Made by a program: the position numbers and the translations under genes | The notes under the pieces: generated by a model | Seen by the model: only the letters and a program-made list of their open reading frames with translations | Database searches by the model: none | Told to the model about the DNA's origin: nothing | In this document: piece by piece, positions 8,596 to 31,479 of the stretch | Numbering within the stretch: position 1 is the stretch's first letter | Layout: each line of letters opens with the position of its first letter | Assembly (NCBI GenBank): GCA_965227835.1 | Contig: OZ245768.1 | Coordinates: forward strand, 210,001-242,000 | Source of the DNA: Candidatus Saccharimonadota bacterium | GTDB lineage: Bacteria > Patescibacteriota > Gracilibacteria > BD1-5 > UBA6164 | Reading direction: 5' to 3' | Length of the DNA: 32,000 bases

Positions 8596-9618
8596 ATGAG
8601 CAAGAATATACTATACAAAATTGATTTAAAATCAATCGTTTCTATAGGGCTAGATGTAAGTAAAAATAAAATAGATATTTGCTTACATAGCAATGAAAAA
8701 AATTTCTTCTTACAAATTAAAAATAATGAAACATGAATTTCTAATCTCATTAGTTGATTAAAAAATAATAATTTTAATCAAAATATACCTCTAGTTATAG
8801 AGTCAACTTGAGATTATAGTACTTTGGCTTGCATGTTACTTTCTAAAGCAAATTTCAATGTAAAAGAAATTAATCCCATTATTACTAAAAATTACACTAA
8901 ATCCACTATTAGATGAATAAAAACAGATAAAATAGATGCTAATATCCTAGCTAATATTTGAGCTTTAAATAAAAATGAATTGTTTTCTTATAATAAAACT
9001 AAAGCTTTTATTGCTATTAGTAAAAAAATATCATTGGTAGCAAATCTTGAAAAACAAATTCAATCATTAAAAATGACTATAAAAAGCTTTTATGAAATAA
9101 ACCAAAAAATTCATTTAGATATTTCTTCGAATGTAAAAAATATAAATATATCTATTTCTAAACTTGAGGATAATATTAAAAATCTTCAGAAAGAAATTCA
9201 GGAGGAGTCTATTTGAAAAGTAGAAGATAAAAAAATAGAGTTAATATGTTCTATAACAGGTTTTTCTAAATATATTGCTACTGTATCTTATGTCTCTTTT
9301 GCTCATAAAGATTTTGTTTCTAAAGAGTCTATGTATGCTTTTGTATGATATGATCCTAAATTGAAAGAAAGTGGAACTTTTAATTGAAAAGCCAGAATTA
9401 CAAAAAGGTGAAATCCTTATGTAAGAAAAAAATTGTTTCAGGCTGCTTTTTGTGCTACTAGGCATTCTAAATTGTTTAAGGGTATTTATGATAGGGCTAG
9501 AGAAAAATGAAAGCATCATTTTGTTTGTGTTATTAATGTTGTGAAGAAGATGATTCATATTTTATTTGCTTTGCTTAAAAATAACTCTGTTTTTAATCCT
9601 AATTTTGCCAAAATTTAG
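8596..9618 (+). CDS. IS110-family transposase/recombinase (DEDD type), 340 aa
   Basis: Motifs are IGLDVSKNKIDIC, VIESTGDYS, EINP, IKTDKIDANILA, YDPKLKESGTFNGKARITKRGNPYVRKKLFQAAF, and GKHHFVCVINVVKKMIHILFALLK. About 10 in-frame TGA are read as Gly. Track ORF 8980-9216 is an internal fragment. Confidence 0.9.
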
Positions 9619-9659
9619 TACTTTCTTTTCTTTTTCTTTTGACTTTCCTCATAATAGGA

Positions 9660-9700
9660 CTCTCCTTAGAGGAGATGGGAGTAAAACAGAAGGAATAGAA
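9660..9700 (+). repeat. 3' half of the family-1 GC-rich repeat split by the IS110 element
   Basis: ctctccttagaggagatgggagtaaaacagaaggaatagaa matches the 3' half of the copies at 2366-2425 and 12520-12610. Confidence 0.6.
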
Positions 9701-9770
9701 TATAAATTACTATTACAGAGTAGAGAATAATAAAATAAATTTTACTCTATAAATTATTTTTAAATCTATT

Positions 9771-9970
9771 GTGTCCCTTCAACAGAGGGCTTTAGTCCTT
9801 TGCCCATTAACAATATTTGCATTCAGCCTTTTGCATAGTAAGATTTTTGCAAATATAAATCTTAATTGCAAATTATCCTAAATTTAGTATATTCCTTTAG
9901 GCAGTGAGCTTTAGCCCTTTGTCCCATATTACATTATATCCTTTCAACAGAAAGCTTCATCCTTTTGCCT
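9771..9970 (+). repeat. Cluster of three family-2 hairpins plus copy B of the 80-nt unit
   Basis: The hairpins are cagagggctttagtcctttg (9783-9802), cagtgagctttagccctttg (9902-9921) and cagaaagcttcatccttttg (9948-9967). The 80-nt unit spans 9843-9925. Confidence 0.7.
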
Positions 9971-10034
9971 AGTAGAAATTTTGACAAAAAACTATGATAA
10001 ACTTTTAACTTTTAACTCTTAACTCCCCCCTCAA

Positions 10035-11456
10035 ATGAAAAACAAACTAACCCTCCAACCAAAAAAAGCCTTCACCCTAGTAGAACTAATAGTAGTAGTA
10101 ACAATACTAGCAATAATCTGAACAATATGATTTGTAAGCTATACAGACTATCTATCTTGAGTAAGAGATACAAATAGAACAGTACAACTAGAAAGTATAT
10201 GAGATTGATTAAAACTATCACTAACAAGATGAAGACTTCCAATACCCGATGACTATATAGAAGTTAAAACTAATTGAAATACTATAGCATATCAAGGATA
10301 TGCATGAGAAGAAGTACTAAAAAAAATTAAATATGACAAAGAAGGTAAAGACCCACTAGATAATACATATTTTTCATACTATGCTACAGACAATAGAAAG
10401 AACTTTCAATTAATGGCATTACTAGAAGAAACAAATGAAACTGTAAGTTTATTTAAGGGAGAAGTATTATCTAATGATATAGATTATGCAGATAGACAAG
10501 TTAAGGTAAGTTGAAAGAAGCTATGAATATTAACTGGGGGTTGAGATAATTTAAATGTACCAGTACAAGAGATATGAGAGATAAAAGATAATTGAGAATT
10601 AGATATAGCTACTACAGGAGAAGAATATATATCCCATATAGATGATATTGATAAGATTAGTTGAAGTTGAAGTGAATTAATAAAATCAATATATAATTCT
10701 AGTTGTAAGAGGATACTAGAATCTAGCTTAGATAATTGAGATTGAATTTATAAGATAAATCCTGCTGGAACAGAAGAATTTGAAGTTTATTGTGATATGA
10801 GTACTGATGGAGGTGGTTGGACTTTTTTATGGAAAAACTATGGAGGACCAGGAGCTACTGGAATTTCAAATGAAAATCTTTTAGTTTCAAATCAAAATGA
10901 TTTAGTAATTCCACAAAAAAATGGAGGAGAATTTAATTCAGAAATAAATACAAATGCTTGGAATTATTTTAAAGAATTAGAAAATGTAGAATTAATAAAG
11001 TTAGCAAGTTATAAAAATCGTCCAAGTGAATTTACACTTGCTTTTGGAAGTGGAACAGGTGTTTGGAACAAAATACATTTAGATTTGGGAGAAAGTGTTA
11101 CTTTCTCTGATTTATTTGATTTAACAAATCCTAATATTTTTACAAATTCTTATGGAGATGACTGTCTGAAACTTGATAATCAGGTTGAAATGTTTATAGA
11201 TGATTCCTCTTATGGAAAATCTGATTATATTTTCTTCAGAAATAATGAATCCTTTGGATTTGCTAATAGTCATCAAGATAGAGATTTTTGTGGAGAAACA
11301 AACCAAGATAATTTAATGAATGGCTGGGGAGCAAGACATGTAATTTCCTATGTTCATAATCAAAATGAACAAAATGCAGTTAGATGTCAATTTCAATGCT
11401 GGAATGGGACTGAAAATTATTGGATTGAAACTGCTTGGGGAATTAGAGAAAGATAA
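10035..11456 (+). CDS. Type IV pilin-like protein with a C-terminal fibrinogen-related-domain-like module, 473 aa
   Basis: The prepilin-type N-terminus is MKNKLTLQPKKAFTLVELIVVVTILAII. SCKRILESSLDNGDGIYKINPAGTEEFEVYCDMSTDGGGWTF matches the hallmark FReD start. Track ORF 10797-11456 is the C-terminal part of this frame. Confidence 0.85.
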
Positions 11457-11636
11457 AATAACAAGTTTTTTCTTAAAAATATTTATTTTTTAGACCCCTA
11501 AAGTATTTTTTGCAAACCAGTAAAAATTTTATAAAATAAGCTTTTGTTTTAATTATTCATTTTTAGATTTTAAAAATCTTTAAAGTTTGTAAATCAATAA
11601 TTAGAAAGCTTTATTTTTTTACTACTTAAAAACTCT

Positions 11637-12374
11637 ATGGCAATTAGCAAAAAAGCTGTAAACGATCCAGTAAATATAGAAAAAGTATCTAAACTACTCC
11701 AAAAACTTGATATAAAATACAAGGAAACATCTCACTATATATTATCATTCATCCACAGATCAATAGTAAATGAGAGACCAGATTTTACTCCAGAACACAA
11801 TGAAAGATTAGAATTTTTATGAGATGCGGTTTTAGAATTAGTAATCACAGATAAACTATTTAAAGACTTTCCTAAAAAACCAGAATGAGAATTGACAGAC
11901 ATTAGAAGTGCTCTTGTTAGATGAAAAAACCTTGCTGTAATTACTAGAGAACTAGGATTTTCAGATTATTTGTTTATGTGAAATTGAGAAGAAAAAATGT
12001 GATGAAGAAGCAATGATTATATATTAGCAAATACACTTGAAGCATTTATAGGAGCTATGTATGTAGACCTTTGAATAGAAAAAACAAGAGATTTTATAAT
12101 AAAACATATATATAAAACACTTGACTCTATATTGGAAAATAACCTTACAAAAGATTATAAAACACTCTATCAGGAATACAGCCAATCAAAATATGATATT
12201 ACACCAAACTATAAATTAATATCTGATTCTTGACCAGATCACGATAAACATTTTGAAGTTGGTGTATTTTTAGAAGAAAAAATGTCTTGAACATGACAAT
12301 GAACAAGTAAGAAAAAAGCCCAAGAACAAGCAGCAAAAAATGCTTATATGAATATAAGTTGAGATATGATTTAG
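11637..12374 (+). CDS. rnc: Ribonuclease III
   Basis: It has the signature HNERLEFLGDAVLELVI with the Gly encoded by TGA at 11820-11822. It also has EAFIGAMYVDLG and the dsRBD motif GPDHDKHFEVGV...KKKAQEQAAKNA. Confidence 0.95.
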
Positions 12375-14242: not shown

Positions 14243-15445
14243 ATGAAAAATACAATAACACCAGCTTTAGAGCAATTTTATGAATTAAAAAAACAAAACA
14301 AAGACTGCATTTTATGGTTTAGAATGTGAGATTTTTATGAAATGTTTGACGAAGATGCCCATATTGCTCACAAAGTACTTTGAATAAATATTACCTCTAG
14401 GAATAAAAATGCATCTGAACCACAGCCTCTAGCTTGAATACCATATCATGCAAAAGATAAATATTTACCCCAATTAGTAAATGCTTGATACAAAGTTGCT
14501 ATAGCTGAACAAGTGAGTGATCCCAAAGCAAAATGAATAGTAAAAAGAGAAATAGTTAGAGTTGTTAGCCCTGCTACTATAGCTTTGGAGTGAGAAACTT
14601 ATAGTCTAAATTCAAATGTATCAAATTATATAATATCTATAACACAAGAAAAAAACATTTACTGAATAAGCATAATTGAACCAAATACCTGACAATGGAG
14701 AGTTTGAGAGATTGATGAATTTCAAAAATTACTTGATGAGATTTACAAGATATCCCCTCAAGAAATAGTTCTAGAAAAGAAATTATTTGATAATCAAGAA
14801 CTAAGAAAAGGATTAGAAAAAAGACATACTACTAATATATATTTTCTAGATAATACTTCTGATCCAAAAGAAGAGCTGAAAACACATTTTGGTATAAAAG
14901 ACCTATATGCCTTTAATTTAGAGGATAATAAACTAGCTTGCAAAGCTGGAGCTTTAGTTTTGGAATATTTGAAATCTTCTCAAAAATCTGATTTAAAATA
15001 TCTAAATTCTATAAAGTATGAAACTTTTTCTGATTATATGAATTTAGATGAACAAACTATAAAAAGTCTTGATCTTCTTTACAATATTTCTACTAAATCA
15101 CAAAAAATATGAACACTTTTTTGAATAATGGATAAAACTAAAACCCCTATGTGAAGAAGATTTTTAAGAGAAGCTATAGTTAAACCACTCCAAGATATAG
15201 AAAAAATAGAAAAAAGACAAGATATAATAGAAGAGTTTTTAAAAGATTATGTAGTTTTAGATAAGGTAACAAAGAATCTTTCAAAAATATCTGACCTAGA
15301 TAATATATTATCTAGACTTTCTCTTGGTAGAGCTAATCCAAGAGATTTAATTGCTTTGAAAAATAGTTTAAAAACAATTTTAGAAGTATATGAGATAATA
15401 AAAGATTCTGGAAATGCTAGACTTATAGAGTTACTTGAAATATAG
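14243..15445 (+). CDS. mutS: MutS N-terminal half only (mismatch-binding, connector and core domains), 400 aa, with no ATPase domain
   Basis: Motifs are [49 protein letters not shown], and TPMGRRFLREAIVKPL. The frame ends at TAG 15443-15445 after LGRANPRDLIALKNSL. The next gene (holA) starts 44 nt later. Confidence 0.8.
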
Positions 15446-21282: not shown

Positions 21283-22567
21283 CTCAAAACTACCCACTTT
21301 TTATAAAATCGACATATGAGAATAAGGATAACTGAGGGAAATGTAGGTTGTTTTTATTATTTAAATTTTTAATATGTTTTTTAGGAGGTTTATACAACTT
21401 TGTTAAACAATAAGATATAAATTTAACAATAGAATTAGAATTCATAGTTATTCATCGAGATTTTGTATAATCTCTAAATCTAGATTTAAATCTAGAAGAA
21501 AGTATAAACCTCTGATTCTCACAAAAAGAATTATTCTTTTTATATATAGTCCTAGTCAAAGCCATAGCCAACTGTATAGTAGAAACAAAATTTTTAAATA
21601 CTATTAAACTCTTAGCTTGAAGTTTCTCAAGCTGAAACTCCTGCTTCATAGTTTTAAATATTGTCTCTATTTCCCGTCTTTGTTTATATTCTTCTATATC
21701 TGTTTTTCTTGAATTTGATAATATCCTCATTGGTTCAGGAAATTTAGGATTTGATTTAATATGAAGATATATTGATTCATTAACTGAATTAATTCTTACC
21801 TTATGAACTCAATCTTTAAATTCCTTTAATTTCAAATATTTATTGGTTTTTAAATCAAAATATATCCTATTCTTTTTAGCTCTTATTATCCATCTATTTA
21901 CACTATTATTTAAAAACTCTATATATGATGCTATATCATATCAAGCATCATATACATATATTCACTTTCATTTAGTATAATCTTCTACTTTTTTAATTAA
22001 TTTTCAAAAATATTCAGATTTAAATTTATTAGTTAAATCTTCATACTCAAGTATTACAGGAATTCAATTTATACTTACTCAATGATACATATATCAAGAA
22101 ACTATATTTCAAGTACTTCAATCTCTTACTTTAGATAAATTTTCTAGCTTCTTTGAGTATTGTTTTGCTATATCAACTTCATCAAAAACTATATAATCAT
22201 TTTTATTTATTTTTCATAACATAGAAAAACATCTTTTTTCTACTTTTAGGTTAAAATTTTTAAAACTATCTTTTTCAAAGAAATGTTTTATTTTTTCACT
22301 CATTTTGTTAGGATTTTTATATTTTCAAAATCATAATTTGTTCATTATTGTTGTTCTTAGCTTTATTATATCTCAAAAAAACTCTTTAATAAATCTTTTA
22401 TCATTTTTGCATTCATATTTCATTAAATATCATAGTTCTTTGTTTATTATTTTTTGTATTTCTTGCATAAAAAAAAGTAATAATAATATATTACTTCAAT
22501 TATTAGATTATCCCCTCTGTCAAGCTTTTTTTAGACTTTTTTATTAAAAAAACTGGGGAGTTTTGAG
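21283..22567 (-). mobile_element. IS4-like insertion sequence, copy 1 (1285 bp)
   Basis: The terminal inverted repeats are ctcaaaactacccac and, as reverse complement, ctcaaaactccccag. A 6-bp target duplication TAAAAA lies at 21277-21282 and 22568-22573. By eye it is identical base for base to 30195-31479. Confidence 0.9.
21452..22468 (-). CDS. IS4-family DDE transposase, 338 aa
   Basis: I translated every codon by hand: MQEIQKIINKELGYLMKYE...VFDEVD...YVYDAGYD...YKQRREIETIFKTMK. The last motif has the Y-2-R-3-E-6-K signature spacing. About 16 in-frame TGA are read as Gly. Track ORF 21452-21730 is only the C-terminal 92 aa. Confidence 0.9.
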
Positions 22568-23103
22568 TAAAAAATATTGACATAATATTTATAATAAATA
22601 TATTGTTAATGACATAATATAATTTAATTTTATAATACGATAATATGGGTAAACCTGAATTAAACCCCGAAGTGCAATTTTTTAAATGAACTTAAAGAAG
22701 AAAATATAGCATTAAGAAATTTTTTATTTTTGAGATTATAAAAAATTTTGTTATAATTCCAAATACAACATTAAGATTGTGAAAAGTGTGCTTGATTAGG
22801 GGAAATAAATCAAAGTATTTCTCTAGGAGTATTTGCTAATATATCGCAAATACTTTTTATTTTTTCATCACTTACATAATCAAATATAGTTCATTTAGGA
22901 AAAAATCTCCTGATAATCCTATTTAAATTCTCAACACTTCACTTCTGCCAAGAAGAATAAGGTTCACAAAAGTAAGTATCTATTCATATATCATTTAATA
23001 AATAATGCTTAGCAAATTCCATTCAATTATCAAAAGTAACAGATTTAATTCATATATCATCTTTAACTCAAGGGACCTCTGCAATATTGTTGAAAAGAAC
23101 AAG

Positions 23104-23137
23104 AAAAAAGTGATTTTGAATAAAAATCACTTTTTTT
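23104..23137. terminator. Hairpin terminator inside the IS5 element, downstream of its transposase gene
   Basis: aaaaaAGTGATTTTgaatAAAATCACTttttttt is flanked by A and T runs. Confidence 0.5.
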
Positions 23138-23222
23138 GAAGAATATATAAGATAATTTCTATGAATTATGCCTTTTTTTAGGTATAATTTCCAAATTTAG
23201 GCACAATTCACCTATTAGAAAG

Positions 23223-24188
23223 CTATATATACCTCCTTGCCAATAGTTCAAAATTATAAATAGCACAAGATAAAAACCAGTGCATAGCATTCTTAACTAA
23301 TCATCTATATCTTGTTTTATAATTTCAATATTTAGCCTTTAAAATAGAAAAAGGATGTTCTACTCTTGCCCTAATAGTAGATTTAATTCTATTTTGTTCT
23401 TTTTGATAAGAAGTCAACGGATTATTTCTAGATCATCTTTCATTGAACTCTCACTTAATTCATAACTCATCTAAAAATTTTATTTTATCTTTACTTATAT
23501 AGGCACTATCTCAATATGCCTCTTCACTCTCATCTCAAGTCATTAAAGTATCAGATAACTGTGAATCATGTATCTTAGCTGTCGTATATGTTGTATTCAT
23601 TACAAAGTCTCCTCTCTTTGTTGTTTCAATATGAGCTTTATATCAATGATAACTTCTTCAATTCTTCTTTGTAAAACTAGCTTCCTTATCTCTTGTATTT
23701 TCTCATTTATTATTCTTTCTTCATTTTGGTGATTCTATTATAGTACCATCTTGAATAAATCACTTTTCTACTGTAAATCACATTTCAGCTAAAATAAATT
23801 GAGTCATTGTAAATATAGTTTCCTGACTTCAGTTTTCTGATAATTCATTTCTAAATCTACATATTGTTGTTTCATCTGGTATATCTTTAGATTCAGATAT
23901 TCATAGAAACTTTTGAAAGCTATTTCTGTCTCTTATTTGATCTTCTATTTCCGGATCTGATAATCCATATAGTCATTGAAGAAATAGTATTTTTAACATT
24001 TTTTGTATTTCCATTCTTGGTCTTCAAACTCATCAATCTGATATTTCTCTAGATAAATTAATTTTATTTGATATTGATTCCCATGGGACTACTTTATCTA
24101 ATTTTGTTAGAAACTTTTCTGTTCTTGTAATTCATAACTCATTTTGGAAATAATTCAAAAATGTTTGTTGTTCTTTAAATGGTGACAT
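23223..24188 (-). CDS. IS5-family DDE transposase, 321 aa
   Basis: Motifs are GRPRMEIQKMLKILFLQGLYGLSDPEIEDQIRDRNSFQKFLG, PDETTICRFRNEL, IQDGTIIESP, HGYKAHI, TTAKIHDSQ, AYGDSAYIS, and RARVEHPFSILKAKYGNYKTRYRGLVKN. More than 20 in-frame TGA are read as Gly. Confidence 0.9.
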
Positions 24189-25133
24189 AATCATTAAAAA
24201 AAAATTAAAATATTTATCATATTTTAATCTTTTTATTATATTTTTGTAATTTAAATCTATCTTTTTGCAGAGGTCCCTCAAGCTATTAGATTAATTATAT
24301 TTTCACTTGATTTATCTTTTATTTTAAAAATTTTAGGTAACCTAGTCTTTCTATCAACCAATGTAAGTATAGCTCATTTAAATCATTTTTTAGAAACAAT
24401 TAAATCAGCTTCAATATGTCATTTTTCTTCTCTGTTATTTATTGTTTCAGGTCTATTTTTAATACTAACTCTATTTTTAATTTTCACTCTTTCTGTTTGT
24501 TGTTTTTTCTTTCTATAACCTTTATGTTTATATAATAATAGTTCTTTATATTTATTTCACATACCAGTTTCTAGCCAAGAATATATACTTGTATGGGAGA
24601 TATGTTTCTTTTTATCTGTTTGAGTATTATTCCGTTTCTTAGCAATTGTTTTTGGGGACATTTGTATTTCTGTTATTGATAGTTGTTCTATTATGAAATT
24701 TTTCATATTAGTATTCATATTTATCTTCATTGATTGAGTTTTTGTTAGCCATCGTCTTTGATATGATTTGATTTCTGCTTCTAGTGCTAAATATACTTTT
24801 TTATTGTTTCATCGTTTTTTTACTGAATTTCTGTATATCTCTCTGCTTATTGTTGATTCTGATCTTTTTAGTATTGATGCTATATCTTTTTTCTTTAATC
24901 ATTTATTTAAATGAAATTCAATACTTTCTCTCTCTTGGAATATTAATTGTCAGTACATATCTTATTATATTAGAAAATAATGTTATTACCCTACGGGGAA
25001 TACTATATTTTCTTCTCTTTTAATTGCACTTCATTTCTTACTTTGGGAGAAAGACTGTCTTTCTGTTAATTTTAACTTAGATGGCAGAACTTACTATTTT
25101 ATAGTTTTGCTAATACACTTTTGGAGGTGTAAA

Positions 25134-30194: not shown

Positions 30195-31479
30195 CTCAAA
30201 ACTACCCACTTTTTATAAAATCGACATATGAGAATAAGGATAACTGAGGGAAATGTAGGTTGTTTTTATTATTTAAATTTTTAATATGTTTTTTAGGAGG
30301 TTTATACAACTTTGTTAAACAATAAGATATAAATTTAACAATAGAATTAGAATTCATAGTTATTCATCGAGATTTTGTATAATCTCTAAATCTAGATTTA
30401 AATCTAGAAGAAAGTATAAACCTCTGATTCTCACAAAAAGAATTATTCTTTTTATATATAGTCCTAGTCAAAGCCATAGCCAACTGTATAGTAGAAACAA
30501 AATTTTTAAATACTATTAAACTCTTAGCTTGAAGTTTCTCAAGCTGAAACTCCTGCTTCATAGTTTTAAATATTGTCTCTATTTCCCGTCTTTGTTTATA
30601 TTCTTCTATATCTGTTTTTCTTGAATTTGATAATATCCTCATTGGTTCAGGAAATTTAGGATTTGATTTAATATGAAGATATATTGATTCATTAACTGAA
30701 TTAATTCTTACCTTATGAACTCAATCTTTAAATTCCTTTAATTTCAAATATTTATTGGTTTTTAAATCAAAATATATCCTATTCTTTTTAGCTCTTATTA
30801 TCCATCTATTTACACTATTATTTAAAAACTCTATATATGATGCTATATCATATCAAGCATCATATACATATATTCACTTTCATTTAGTATAATCTTCTAC
30901 TTTTTTAATTAATTTTCAAAAATATTCAGATTTAAATTTATTAGTTAAATCTTCATACTCAAGTATTACAGGAATTCAATTTATACTTACTCAATGATAC
31001 ATATATCAAGAAACTATATTTCAAGTACTTCAATCTCTTACTTTAGATAAATTTTCTAGCTTCTTTGAGTATTGTTTTGCTATATCAACTTCATCAAAAA
31101 CTATATAATCATTTTTATTTATTTTTCATAACATAGAAAAACATCTTTTTTCTACTTTTAGGTTAAAATTTTTAAAACTATCTTTTTCAAAGAAATGTTT
31201 TATTTTTTCACTCATTTTGTTAGGATTTTTATATTTTCAAAATCATAATTTGTTCATTATTGTTGTTCTTAGCTTTATTATATCTCAAAAAAACTCTTTA
31301 ATAAATCTTTTATCATTTTTGCATTCATATTTCATTAAATATCATAGTTCTTTGTTTATTATTTTTTGTATTTCTTGCATAAAAAAAAGTAATAATAATA
31401 TATTACTTCAATTATTAGATTATCCCCTCTGTCAAGCTTTTTTTAGACTTTTTTATTAAAAAAACTGGGGAGTTTTGAG
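30195..31479 (-). mobile_element. IS4-like insertion sequence, copy 2 (1285 bp)
   Basis: It has the same sequence and orientation as 21283-22567, at an offset of 8912 bp. Its own 6-bp target duplication CTATAT lies at 30189-30194 and 31480-31485. Confidence 0.9.
30364..31380 (-). CDS. IS4-family DDE transposase, 338 aa (copy 2)
   Basis: It is identical to 21452-22468. The track ORFs 30364-30642 and 21452-21730 have identical peptides. Confidence 0.9.

What the first reader, a model, noticed from the sequence alone, without database searches (positions are those of the whole stretch)
10035..11456. Pilin-like N-terminus fused to a fibrinogen-related-domain-like module: a candidate glycan-binding pilus adhesin
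The N-terminus MKNKLTLQPKKAFTLVELIVVVTILAII is a prepilin cleavage/methylation signal, with Ala rather than the usual Gly before the Phe and Glu at +5. About 220 residues later, SCKRILESSLDNGDGIYKINPAGTEEFEVYCDMSTDGGGWTF reproduces the characteristic opening of fibrinogen C-terminal (FReD) lectin domains: C..I...G....G.Y.I.P......F.VYCDM.T.GGGWT. This opening is best known from ficolins, tachylectins and angiopoietins. The remaining ~200 aa, rich in Trp and Cys, are diverged, and I cannot see the canonical FReD C-terminal signature. No other pilus genes flank it. In an episymbiotic CPR lineage, a lectin displayed on a pilin scaffold would be a plausible host-attachment device. I do not recognise this architecture as a described one.
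Basis: partly seen in the sequence, partly recalled or inferred. Interest (0 to 1): 0.75.

Follow-up and report, generated by a model that had tools for sequence, protein, structure and literature searches.

The report
Pilin adhesin with an archaeal-derived tail
This gene encodes a pilus-subunit-like surface protein from a Gracilibacteria-type bacterium that reads TGA as glycine, and its C-terminal 215 residues were recently copied in frame from an archaeon, so putative adhesion modules are being exchanged between the two domains of life.

Summary
ORF 10035-11456 is open only if TGA is a sense codon. It starts with a prepilin signal and carries a fibrinogen-like C..YCDM..GGGWT opening at residues 223-264.

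The architecture is not new. NCBIfam already models this opening (NF040941), more than 400 homologues share the pilin head, and pilin plus fibrinogen-C is listed among published "modular pilins".

Only the roughly 45-residue opening is demonstrably fibrinogen-related. The remaining 210 residues fail sequence and profile tests. A structure search returns only fibrinogen-family hits, but with weak superposition.

The new result is that the gene is a mosaic. Codons 1-258 are native: 17 of 23 Gly codons are TGA, and the DNA is 95% identical to paralogues. Codons 259-473 contain no TGA, have archaeal codon usage, and are 88-90% identical in DNA to a gene on archaeal contigs. The join lies inside the GGGWT-coding motif.

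A paralogue in a related Gracilibacteria contig (L003) carries a different archaeal tail with a different breakpoint. Across the family, near-identical heads carry unrelated tails.

I read the protein as a pilus-displayed adhesin whose ligand-binding tail is exchangeable. The adhesin function is inferred, not shown.

The parts
10035..11456 (+). Complete ORF of 473 aa under code 25, with a TAA stop: a modular pilin-like protein
   Evidence: It is open only with TGA read as a sense codon (17 in-frame TGA, all in codons 29-237).
10035..10070 (+). Predicted prepilin leader, M1-A12 (MKNKLTLQPKKA). Cleavage is predicted before F13, and E17 is the +5 Glu.
   Evidence: The sequence itself, plus Pfam N_methyl and TIGR02532 above their cut-offs. 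Ala at -1 is the family norm. Cleavage itself is inferred.
10062..10127 (+). N-methylation motif and hydrophobic alpha-1N segment (residues 10-31)
   Evidence: PF07963 at 26.5 bits. The head-family profile aligns positions 4-63 with the alpha-1 helix of Geobacter pilin, PpdD, PilA, PilE and GspG.
10035..10808 (+). Native 'head', codons 1-258: pilin module plus the first part of the fibrinogen-like opening
   Evidence: Window 9791-10823 is 95.5% identical in DNA to paralogue L003 and 9796-10825 is 95.4% identical to L017; 9660-10839 is 90.5% identical to L018. Gly codons are 17 TGA and 6 GGN. Codon-usage log-likelihood is +0.66 bits per codon toward the window's own genes.
10701..10826 (+). Fibrinogen-like opening, 'GGGWT_bact' (residues 223-264: SCKRILESSLDNGDGIYKINPAGTEEFEVYCDMSTDGGGWTF)
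   Evidence: NF040941 at 59.7 bits, Pfam Fibrinogen_C over profile positions 14-50 only, and hhalign probability 98% over 48 columns against animal fibrinogen-related domains.
10803..10809 (+). Recombination breakpoint interval. The last Gracilibacteria-diagnostic bases are the AGT codon at 10800-10802. The first archaeal-diagnostic base is G10809 (GGA where the paralogues have TGA).
   Evidence: DNA alignments A3 and A6. The zone homologous to both parents is 10754-10823.
10809..11486 (+). Archaeal-derived 'tail': codons 259-473, the stop codon, and about 30 nt of 3' flank
   Evidence: Window 10754-11486 is 88.1% identical in DNA to archaeal contig L001 (89.8% over the tail alone), 10744-11489 is 84.5% identical to L016, and 10746-11464 is 82.1% identical to L002. 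None of 22 Gly codons is TGA (P = 8e-11). Codon-usage log-likelihood is -0.17 per codon, the same as archaeal genes. dN/dS against L001 is 0.35.
9659..10034 (+). Conserved 5' unit (presumed promoter and leader) shared by the dispersed paralogues. It holds GC-richer repeats of about 50 nt and, just before the ATG, TAACTT-type repeats and a C tract.
   Evidence: 90-92% identical to the upstream regions of L003, L017 and L018. Repeat number and C-tract length differ among paralogues. The promoter scan was not above shuffled background.
8316..9679 (+). IS110-family insertion sequence (transposase ORF 8596-9618) inserted into the conserved upstream unit
   Evidence: 99.7% identical to the copy at L003 5655-4291. 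The sequence on either side (8253-8323 and 9659-9834) is contiguous in L003 and L017. Pfam DEDD_Tnp_IS110 and Transposase_20 match the ORF.

Best explanation
**What it is**
- The gene encodes a modular type IV pilin-like protein of a Gracilibacteria-type organism that reads TGA as Gly.
- It is predicted to start with a 12-residue leader that a prepilin peptidase would remove. A pilin alpha-1 helix and a ~200-residue head follow. The last ~250 residues form a domain that opens with the fibrinogen-type C...YCDM..GGGWT motif.
- It belongs to a large Gracilibacteria multigene family, with several dispersed copies per genome. The family is built as a constant head (including about 0.4 kb of upstream DNA) joined to an exchangeable tail at the GGGWT-coding motif.

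**What happened in this copy**
- The tail, from codon 259 to about 30 nt past the stop, was acquired from a low-GC, standard-code archaeon. The join is a recombination event inside the motif.
- The motif is nearly identical at the DNA level in both organisms, because both are AT-rich and the amino acids are conserved.
- A paralogue in a related contig made the same kind of capture independently, with a different archaeal tail and a different breakpoint.

**Shown and inferred**
- Shown: the mosaic structure, its polarity, the position of the breakpoint, the head-tail modularity of the family, and purifying selection on the tail.
- Inferred: the protein is incorporated into a type IV pilus, probably as a minor or tip subunit because of its bulk.
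- Inferred: the tail is the ligand-binding (adhesin or lectin) part, and swapping tails changes binding specificity toward hosts or prey.
- Inferred: the DNA entered by natural transformation with one homologous anchor and an illegitimate 3' join.
For: **Code and native head**
- establish the code-25 reading and the native head.

**Mosaic**
- Codon usage switches sharply at codon ~259 (TGA/GGN 17/6 before, 0/22 after; Leu CTA 13 then 0; Trp 0 then 8).
- Codon log-likelihood is +0.66 per codon for the head and -0.17 for the tail. All 25 window genes score +0.14 to +0.95, and all 18 archaeal genes score -0.11 to -0.27.
- In blastn the head is 95% identical to Gracilibacteria loci L003 and L017, and the tail is 82-88% identical to L001, L002 and L016 (89.8% to L001 over the tail alone).

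**Archaeal identity of the donor contigs**
- L001 carries NAC (TIGR00264, above cut-off), aIF5A (TIGR00037, above cut-off) and RFC large subunit. L016 carries Trm5b. L019 carries archaeal-type AlaRS and SMC. L002 carries ribosomal protein S24e.
- These contigs have no in-frame TGA in the 18 genes checked, and one of those genes ends in TGA.

**Polarity**
- The window tail nests inside the archaeal clade: WIN-L001 89.8%, L001-L016 89.8%, and L002 about 82% to all three.
- The gene sits at syntenic loci in L001 and L002, each followed by TctA and SRP54.

**Second, independent event**
- The L003 tail has 0 TGA among 8 Gly codons and is 85.8% identical to the archaeal L019 gene. Its breakpoint lies after TGGACT.

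**Family modularity**
- 108 head-bearing proteins have tails that fall into 42 BLAST clusters. Many pairs have heads 90-97% identical and tails with no detectable similarity.
- Heads of the paralogues differ by dS of only 0.03-0.10.

**Pilin nature**
-.

**Adhesin context**
- The module occurs between LamG-like lectin domains in giant surface proteins.
- The published modular-pilin concept includes experimentally shown adhesins (PMC8179133).
- 15 large 'GspG' proteins and a PilD were reported in a closed Gracilibacteria genome (PMC6851277).
Against: - There is no read-level confirmation that the mosaic is contiguous.
- The nearest archaeal sequence is only 88-90% identical, so the true donor is unsampled. 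A third-party standard-code donor to both lineages cannot be excluded.
- No pilus assembly genes or prepilin peptidase are in the window.
- The pilin globular fold and the full-length protein were not modelled, because the structure tool rejected the code-25 translation.
- The tail shows no sequence or profile similarity to fibrinogen-related domains beyond GGGWT, and the structural match is weak (TM at most 0.43). Lectin activity therefore rests on analogy only.
- Nothing here shows that the gene is expressed.
Confidence: 0.75

Rival explanations
1. The mosaic is an assembly artefact. A metagenome assembler joined Gracilibacteria and archaeal sequence at the shared GGGWT-coding motif.
For: The junction lies in an 80-nt stretch that is 81-84% identical between the two organisms. 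That is the kind of repeat that can mislead an assembler. Both organisms occur in one sample, ERZ25074195.
Against: - The archaeal-like segment is only about 680 nt. It is flanked on both sides by TGA-rich Gracilibacteria DNA (head upstream; RNase III with 13 TGA downstream), so two precise switches would be needed.
- The reading frame is preserved.
- The tail differs by 10-18% from every archaeal contig found, so it is not simply a read from one of them.
- L003 shows an independent mosaic with another tail, another breakpoint, and 14% divergence from its archaeal counterpart in the same sample.
- dN/dS of 0.35 indicates a functioning coding sequence.
Confidence: 0.05
2. The tail did not come from the archaeon. 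Both the Gracilibacteria and the archaea obtained it from a third standard-code donor such as a virus or another bacterium, or the archaea obtained it from a TGA-free Gracilibacteria copy.
For: - The closest archaeal sequence is only 88-90% identical.
- The tail family also occurs in signal-peptide proteins of other organisms and in giant multidomain proteins.
- P0011 shows the same tail type in a TGA-recoded organism, with W (probably TGA) throughout.
Against: - The gene is resident at syntenic loci in two diverged archaeal strains.
- The window tail nests within the archaeal clade.
- Both captured tail types (P0002-like and P0035-like) sit on one and the same archaeal head family.
- Export from a TGA-recoded genome would normally carry in-frame TGA codons, which are lethal stops in an archaeon.
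Confidence: 0.12
3. The protein is a pseudopilin or cell-surface protein with a non-adhesive job, such as a secretion-system pseudopilus component, an enzyme, or a toxin delivered by the filament. On this view the variable tails are effector domains rather than binding domains.
For: - NCBI names some homologues 'type II secretion system protein'.
- There is a weak GspG match (TIGR01710, E 0.011).
- A constant head with hypervariable C-termini recalls polymorphic toxins.
- Raynaud et al. note peptidase modules on some modular pilins.
Against: - No catalytic or toxin family matches the tail in Pfam or NCBIfam.
- No immunity-like small ORF follows the gene; RNase III is next.
- All significant structural neighbours are fibrinogen-family members, chiefly lectins and other binding proteins.
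- The module co-occurs with LamG-like lectin domains.
Confidence: 0.1

Closest known systems
Modular type IV pilins (Raynaud et al. 2021, PNAS, PMC8179133): PilB (vWA module) and PilC (ConA-like lectin module) of Streptococcus sanguinis. Their Dataset S1 lists the architecture IPR012902-IPR002181.
   Same: An N-terminal prepilin signal and pilin module carry a grafted C-terminal binding-type module. The pilin plus fibrinogen-C combination is already catalogued, with 8 proteins.
   Different: - No member with a fibrinogen-type module has been studied experimentally.
- Here the grafted module is exchanged among paralogues at a fixed internal motif.
- In this copy the module comes from an archaeon.
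NCBIfam NF040941 'GGGWT_bact', fibrinogen-like YCDxxxxGGGW domain-containing protein
   Same: Residues 223-264 match at 59.7 bits against a cut-off of 30. NCBI applies this name to Gracilibacteria and Nanoarchaeia proteins.
   Different: The model describes only the 46-residue opening. It says nothing about the tails, their diversity or their exchange.
Animal fibrinogen-related lectin domains (ficolins, FIBCD1, tachylectin-5A, intelectins, angiopoietins; Pfam PF00147)
   Same: The opening (A-subdomain-like) motif, including the Cys...YCDM pair and GGGWT, is homologous: hhalign probability 98% and PDB sequence hits. All top Foldseek hits of the homologue model are fibrinogen-family structures.
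   Different: The ~210 residues after GGGWT have no sequence or profile similarity to the B and P subdomains. TM is only 0.27-0.43. The Ca2+ site and acetyl-binding pocket cannot be located.
Polymorphic C-terminal systems (CdiA-CT after the VENN motif, Rhs/YD toxins) and modular exchange in phage receptor-binding proteins
   Same: A conserved N-terminal carrier is joined at a short conserved motif to highly diverse C-terminal modules that move horizontally.
   Different: There is no toxin domain and no downstream immunity gene. The swapped part is the remainder of a binding-type domain, and the exchange crosses the bacteria-archaea boundary.
Pilin antigenic variation by gene conversion (Neisseria pilE/pilS); comparison from my own knowledge
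   Same: The C-terminal part of a pilin is replaced by recombination while the N-terminal part stays constant.
   Different: No silent cassettes lie nearby. The donors are complete genes at dispersed loci or in other organisms, and the tails are unrelated folds or families rather than variants.

Membership tests
Type IV pilin / class III (prepilin) signal peptide | A short basic leader ending in Gly or Ala at -1, Phe at +1, Glu at +5, and a hydrophobic stretch of about 20 residues | tested here: met
   MKNKLTLQPKKA|FTLVELIVVVTILAII. PF07963 scores 26.5 bits (cut-off 21.2) and TIGR02532 scores 23.4 bits (cut-off 16.3). Ala at -1 occurs in 85 of 120 family members.
Type IV pilin / class III (prepilin) signal peptide | An extended alpha-1 helix homologous to that of solved pilins | tested here: met
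   The head-family profile matches Geobacter pilin, PpdD, PilA, PilE and GspG over profile positions 4-63, with E values of 3e-8 to 1e-4.
Type IV pilin / class III (prepilin) signal peptide | A globular alpha-beta pilin domain packed on alpha-1C | not tested
Type IV pilin / class III (prepilin) signal peptide | A cognate prepilin peptidase and assembly machinery (PilB/C/M-O) in the genome | not testable with these tools
   None lie in the 32-kb window and the rest of the genome is not available. A closed Gracilibacteria genome is reported to encode PilD, PilB, PilC and PilT (PMC6851277).
Fibrinogen-related domain (Pfam PF00147 Fibrinogen_C) | The opening motif C...G.Y.I.P....F.VYCDM...GGGWT | tested here: met
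   PF00147 scores 28.4 bits (cut-off 22) over profile positions 14-50. hhalign probability is 98.2% over 48 columns. PDB sequence hits cover residues 222-270.
Fibrinogen-related domain (Pfam PF00147 Fibrinogen_C) | Sequence match across the B and P subdomains (profile positions about 50-221) | tested here: not met
   The Pfam match, the family-profile search of the PDB and hhalign all end at GGGWT plus a few residues.
Fibrinogen-related domain (Pfam PF00147 Fibrinogen_C) | The overall fibrinogen-type fold | tested here: inconclusive
   The model of the window tail itself was poor (pLDDT 57) and gave no Foldseek match at E <= 0.001. The model of the 77%-identical homologue P0002 was good (domain pLDDT above 90). 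Its top 50 Foldseek hits were all fibrinogen-family structures with probability 0.99-1.0, but TM was 0.27-0.43 and rmsd 9.5-21.5 A (about 10-12 A for most).
Fibrinogen-related domain (Pfam PF00147 Fibrinogen_C) | The Ca2+ site and ligand (acetyl-group) pocket in the P subdomain | not tested
   These residues cannot be aligned, and no ligand-site analysis was possible.
NCBIfam NF040941 GGGWT_bact | A score above the curated cut-off on the 46-position model | tested here: met
   59.7 bits against a cut-off of 30, residues 223-264, model positions 1-45 of 46.
Modular pilins (Raynaud et al. 2021) | The IPR012902 prepilin motif plus an extra C-terminal domain not specific to pilus biology | tested here: met
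   N_methyl and Fibrinogen_C/GGGWT_bact occur on one polypeptide. The architecture IPR012902-IPR002181 is listed in their Dataset S1.
Polymorphic toxin systems (CdiA-CT, Rhs) | A variable C-terminal toxin domain followed by a cognate immunity gene | tested here: not met
   No toxin family matches the tail. The next gene, 180 nt downstream, is RNase III.
Pilin antigenic variation with silent cassettes | Promoterless partial pilin copies near the expression locus | tested here: not met
   A code-25 tblastn of 108 heads and their tails against the window finds only the gene itself.

The most novel reading that the evidence does not exclude
Episymbiotic, TGA-recoded Gracilibacteria and co-resident low-GC (probably DPANN) archaea draw on a common pool of adhesin 'tails'. 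The tails are exchanged by recombination at the conserved YCDM..GGGWT-coding joint, which would then work as a natural cassette-exchange site inside a protein domain. Because the recipient reads TGA as Gly, the flow can only be productive from standard-code donors into the recoded genome. TGA-free tails would then be time-stamped records of cross-domain capture, and shared tails would imply shared binding targets or physical association between the bacterium and the archaeon.
Probability: 0.4. Interest if true: 0.8.

Novelty: new variant of a known kind. Interest (0 to 1): 0.62.

Why it matters
- How ultrasmall episymbionts (CPR bacteria and DPANN archaea) recognise and attach to partners is an open question. 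Pilus-borne adhesins are the leading candidates.
- This locus shows a concrete way in which such adhesins diversify: a constant pilin carrier with tails replaced wholesale at one motif.
- At least two tails were taken recently from archaea living in the same community.
- The change of genetic code gives the transfer a built-in polarity marker. That is rarely available for gene-fragment transfers.
- It also gives a simple screen for further events, namely TGA-free segments in recoded genomes.
- The captured tails are short, defined candidates for binding assays against co-occurring cells.

Tried and rejected
- **Structure of the window's own tail.** With 13 aligned sequences the model had pLDDT 57, and Foldseek returned no match at E <= 0.001 and only unrelated structures. 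I discarded it in favour of a 30-sequence model of the homologue P0002.
- **Extending fibrinogen homology beyond GGGWT.** An HMM search of the PDB with the tail-family profile and hhalign against 12 animal fibrinogen-related domains both stopped at GGGWT.
- **RNA and signals.** An Rfam scan of 8000-12000 gave only a sub-threshold Phe_leader hit (26.7 bits against 55). The promoter scan was at shuffled background. The terminator-like sites lay inside the ORF.
- **tRNAs.** A search for a suppressor or Gly-UCA tRNA found nothing in the window or in loci L001-L003 and L016-L018.
- **Gene context of P0015 and P0018.** The look-up of these two paralogues on a 1.49-Mb NCBI contig returned no record, and cluster look-ups gave no organism names.
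- **Independent occurrence of the junction.** An exact search for the 30-nt chimeric junction in JGI metagenomes found nothing.
- **Closer donor.** A tail-protein scan of the same collection found only a 44%-identical module in a 1924-aa surface protein.
- **Remnants of an earlier tail.** I looked for a former native tail or silent cassettes downstream and found none.
- **Literature.** Searches found no paper on tail swapping or cross-domain exchange of these modules.
Full report
**1. The observation**

The ORF at 10035-11456 (+) is real. Under the standard bacterial code it is broken by 17 TGA codons. With TGA read as Gly it gives a 473-aa protein. All other ORFs in the window also need TGA as a sense codon. 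Excluding this gene, 297 of 455 Gly codons (65%) are TGA. GC content is about 25%. This is a code-25 genome. The closest named homologues are from Candidatus Gracilibacteria.

The N-terminus matches the prepilin methylation motif above curated cut-offs: PF07963 at 26.5 bits (cut-off 21.2) and TIGR02532 at 23.4 bits (cut-off 16.3). A profile of the head family aligns with the alpha-1 helix of solved type IV pilins over about 60 positions, with E values down to 3e-8. Ala at -1 is the family norm: A 85, G 19, and W 15 (W probably stands for TGA) of 120 members.

The fibrinogen-type opening at residues 223-264 matches NCBIfam NF040941 'GGGWT_bact' at 59.7 bits (cut-off 30) and Pfam Fibrinogen_C over profile positions 14-50 only. 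The flanking genes are housekeeping genes and insertion sequences, not pilus genes.

**2. How much of it is a fibrinogen-related domain**

Only the opening is demonstrably fibrinogen-related. Four tests all stop a few residues after GGGWT:
- phmmer against the PDB;
- an HMM of the tail family against the PDB;
- the Pfam match;
- hhalign against 12 animal fibrinogen-related domains, which aligns 48 columns at 98% probability.

A model of the window's own tail was poor, with pLDDT 57 and no Foldseek match at E <= 0.001. A model of the 77%-identical homologue P0002, built from 30 sequences, was confident, with pLDDT above 90 across the domain. Its best 50 Foldseek hits in the PDB were all fibrinogen-family structures: fibrinogen beta chain, ficolins, FIBCD1, MFAP4, tachylectin-5A, intelectin-1, XEEL and angiopoietin-2. 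E values were 5e-6 to 1e-4, but TM was only 0.27-0.43 and rmsd 9.5-21.5 A, about 10-12 A for most hits.

The tail is therefore a conserved module of about 210 residues. An exhaustive search of 1.84 billion cluster representatives found 93 proteins at E <= 1e-10. Its relation to the B and P subdomains is at best remote.

In large surface proteins the opening plus tail forms one discrete ~250-aa unit set between LamG-like lectin domains (L020). That context fits a binding role.

**3. The architecture is already known**

More than 400 proteins share the whole head at E <= 1e-10, typically at 40-50% identity and 350-460 aa long. Several carry NCBI names such as 'fibrinogen-like YCDxxxxGGGW domain-containing protein [Candidatus Gracilibacteria]' or 'prepilin-type N-terminal cleavage/methylation domain-containing protein'.

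Raynaud et al. 2021 defined 'modular pilins' and list IPR012902-IPR002181 (pilin plus fibrinogen C) in their dataset (PMC8179133). Sieber et al. 2019 noted 15 large 'GspG' proteins and a PilD in a closed Gracilibacteria genome (PMC6851277).

One GTDB Gracilibacteria MAG carries at least five copies, two of them in tandem.

**4. The gene is a mosaic**

Codon usage changes abruptly at codon ~259:

| Feature | Before the switch | After the switch |
|---|---|---|
| Gly codons, TGA / GGN | 17 / 6 | 0 / 22 |
| Leu CTA | 13 | 0 |
| Ile ATA | 18 | 5 |
| Trp (TGG) | 0 | 8 |

The chance of no TGA among 22 Gly codons at the genomic rate is 8e-11. The codon log-likelihood ratio (window genes against archaeal genes) is +0.66 bits per codon for the head and -0.17 for the tail. 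All 25 window genes are positive and all 18 archaeal genes are negative.

At the DNA level, window 9791-10823 is 95.5% identical to the paralogous Gracilibacteria locus L003, and 9796-10825 is 95.4% identical to L017. Window 10754-11486 is 88.1% identical to L001, 10744-11489 is 84.5% identical to L016, and 10746-11464 is 82.1% identical to L002.

L001, L002, L016 and L019 are archaeal contigs:
- L001 carries NAC and aIF5A (both above NCBIfam cut-offs) and RFC large subunit.
- L016 carries Trm5b.
- L019 carries archaeal-type AlaRS and SMC.
- L002 carries ribosomal protein S24e.
- GC is 23-26%, and none of the 18 genes checked on L001 and L002 contains an in-frame TGA.

The alignment places the breakpoint between the AGT codon at 10800-10802, which is Gracilibacteria-type, and G10809, the first base of GGA where the paralogues have TGA. 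Archaeal homology ends about 30 nt after the TAA stop.

The tail is under purifying selection. dN/dS against L001 is 0.35, the same as between the two archaeal strains. The window tail nests within the archaeal sequences. The archaeal gene sits at syntenic loci in L001 and L002. I conclude that the transfer went from a standard-code archaeon, or a very close relative of these, into the recoded bacterium.

**5. It is not a one-off**

The paralogue on L003 (P0016) has the same head, 98.8% identical in amino acids. Its tail is different and TGA-free (0 of 8 Gly codons). That tail is 85.8% identical in DNA to the archaeal gene P0035 on L019. Here the breakpoint falls after TGGACT, that is after GGGWT rather than before GGGW.

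The tails on L017 and L018 are TGA-rich (19 of 21 and 17 of 22 Gly codons), so they are native.

The archaeal proteins P0002 and P0035 share their own head: a membrane anchor, then ...GWHIPEEILSGTF...SCKDIL...EFEVYCDMITDGGGWT. Their tails are unrelated to each other. The same head-tail modularity therefore exists in the archaeon.

Family-wide, 108 head-bearing proteins carry tails that fall into 42 BLAST clusters. Many pairs have heads 90-97% identical and tails with no detectable similarity. Heads of the dispersed paralogues, together with about 0.4 kb of upstream DNA, differ by dS of only 0.03-0.10. That points to recent tail replacement or to concerted evolution of the heads.

L003, L017, L018 and all four archaeal contigs come from one ENA sample, ERZ25074195.

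**6. Artefact check**

A misassembly would need two precise switches within 700 nt, both preserving the reading frame. It would also be expected to be near-identical to an archaeal contig from the same sample. Instead the tails differ by 10-18% from the archaeal contigs found here, and in the L003 case those contigs come from the same sample. A second locus shows an independent event. I could not examine reads. An exact search for the junction in JGI metagenomes found nothing.

**7. Mechanism**

- Shown: a constant pilin head, a conserved joint motif, exchangeable tails, and two captures of archaeal tails.
- Inferred from the modular-pilin precedent (PMC8179133) and from the protein's size: it is processed by a prepilin peptidase and displayed on a type IV pilus, probably as a minor or tip subunit, with the tail as the binding surface.
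- Inferred from my own knowledge of homology-facilitated illegitimate recombination in transformable bacteria: the motif, nearly identical at DNA level in two AT-rich genomes, serves as the single homologous anchor, and the 3' end joins illegitimately just past the stop codon.
- Because the host reads TGA as Gly, standard-code genes that end in TAA or TAG can be expressed after import. The reverse direction is blocked.

**8. Verdict**

Its interpretation is partly right: the pilin signal and the fibrinogen-like opening hold, the fibrinogen fold of the remainder is unproven, and the claim of novelty for the architecture is wrong. The added value is the demonstration of a bacterial-archaeal mosaic and of motif-centred tail exchange in this family. 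I found no description of this in the literature I searched.

Noticed in passing
window 8316-9679: An IS110-family element (transposase ORF 8596-9618) is inserted into the conserved upstream unit of the pilin gene. It is 99.7% identical to a copy that lies downstream of the paralogue in L003, in the opposite orientation, so the element is recently active.
   Followed up: partly
window 10000-10034; compare L003 ~2900-2947, L017 and L018 ~5950-6000: Immediately upstream of the ATG lie TAACTT-type short repeats and a C tract. Their numbers differ among paralogues (C6 here, C3-C5 elsewhere; L018 has many more repeat units). This could be phase-variable expression by strand slippage.
   Followed up: partly
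window 8194-8243, 9768-9817, 9933-9982 (also 8152-8230 / 9845-9923): GC-richer repeats of about 50-80 nt (…CAACAGAGGGCTTTAGTCCTTTGCCC…) lie in the conserved upstream unit and are shared with the paralogues. There was no Rfam match. Their function is unknown.
   Followed up: partly
window 21290-22468 and 30202-31380 (both -): Two ORFs encode identical 392-aa DDE (IS4-like, PF01609) transposases about 9 kb apart. An end of the same element occurs at the end of L003.
   Followed up: partly
window 22771-24958 (-): A probable IS30-like transposase gene appears to be split. An N-terminal HTH_38 fragment lies at 24257-24958 and a short C-terminal fragment at 22771-23022. An IS5-like DDE transposase (23223-24194) sits between them, so this looks like nested insertion sequences. 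The IS30 assignment is by eye.
   Followed up: partly
window 14243-15445 (+): The MutS ORF contains only domains I-III (400 aa) and stops before the ATPase domain. HolA follows 45 nt later. This may be a truncated or split mismatch-repair gene.
   Followed up: no
L001 6748-8711; L016 5940-6720: In the archaeal contigs the donor-type gene is itself unstable. In L001 an IS200/Y1 transposase separates the head (6748-7089) from the tail (8001-8711). In L016 the copy is frameshifted.
   Followed up: partly
P0291 (4035 aa), P0396 (697 aa), L020 1498-7269 (1924 aa): Giant surface proteins carry many GGGWT modules with different tail types in tandem (P0291 has 14 matched stretches; P0396 has three copies of the P0017-type tail) or interleaved with LamG-like domains. 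They could act as reservoirs of tail cassettes.
   Followed up: partly
P0020 (414 aa): This paralogue diverges right after YCDM (…EFEVYCDMENYWITDF…) and lacks GGGW altogether. That suggests a third breakpoint position within the same motif.
   Followed up: no
P0008 (409 aa): A homologue with the same tail type has an N-terminus resembling an archaeal class III (pilin/archaellin-like) signal (…KRGISPIIASILLIVFILV…). Archaea may also display this module on pilin-like carriers. This was judged by eye only.
   Followed up: no
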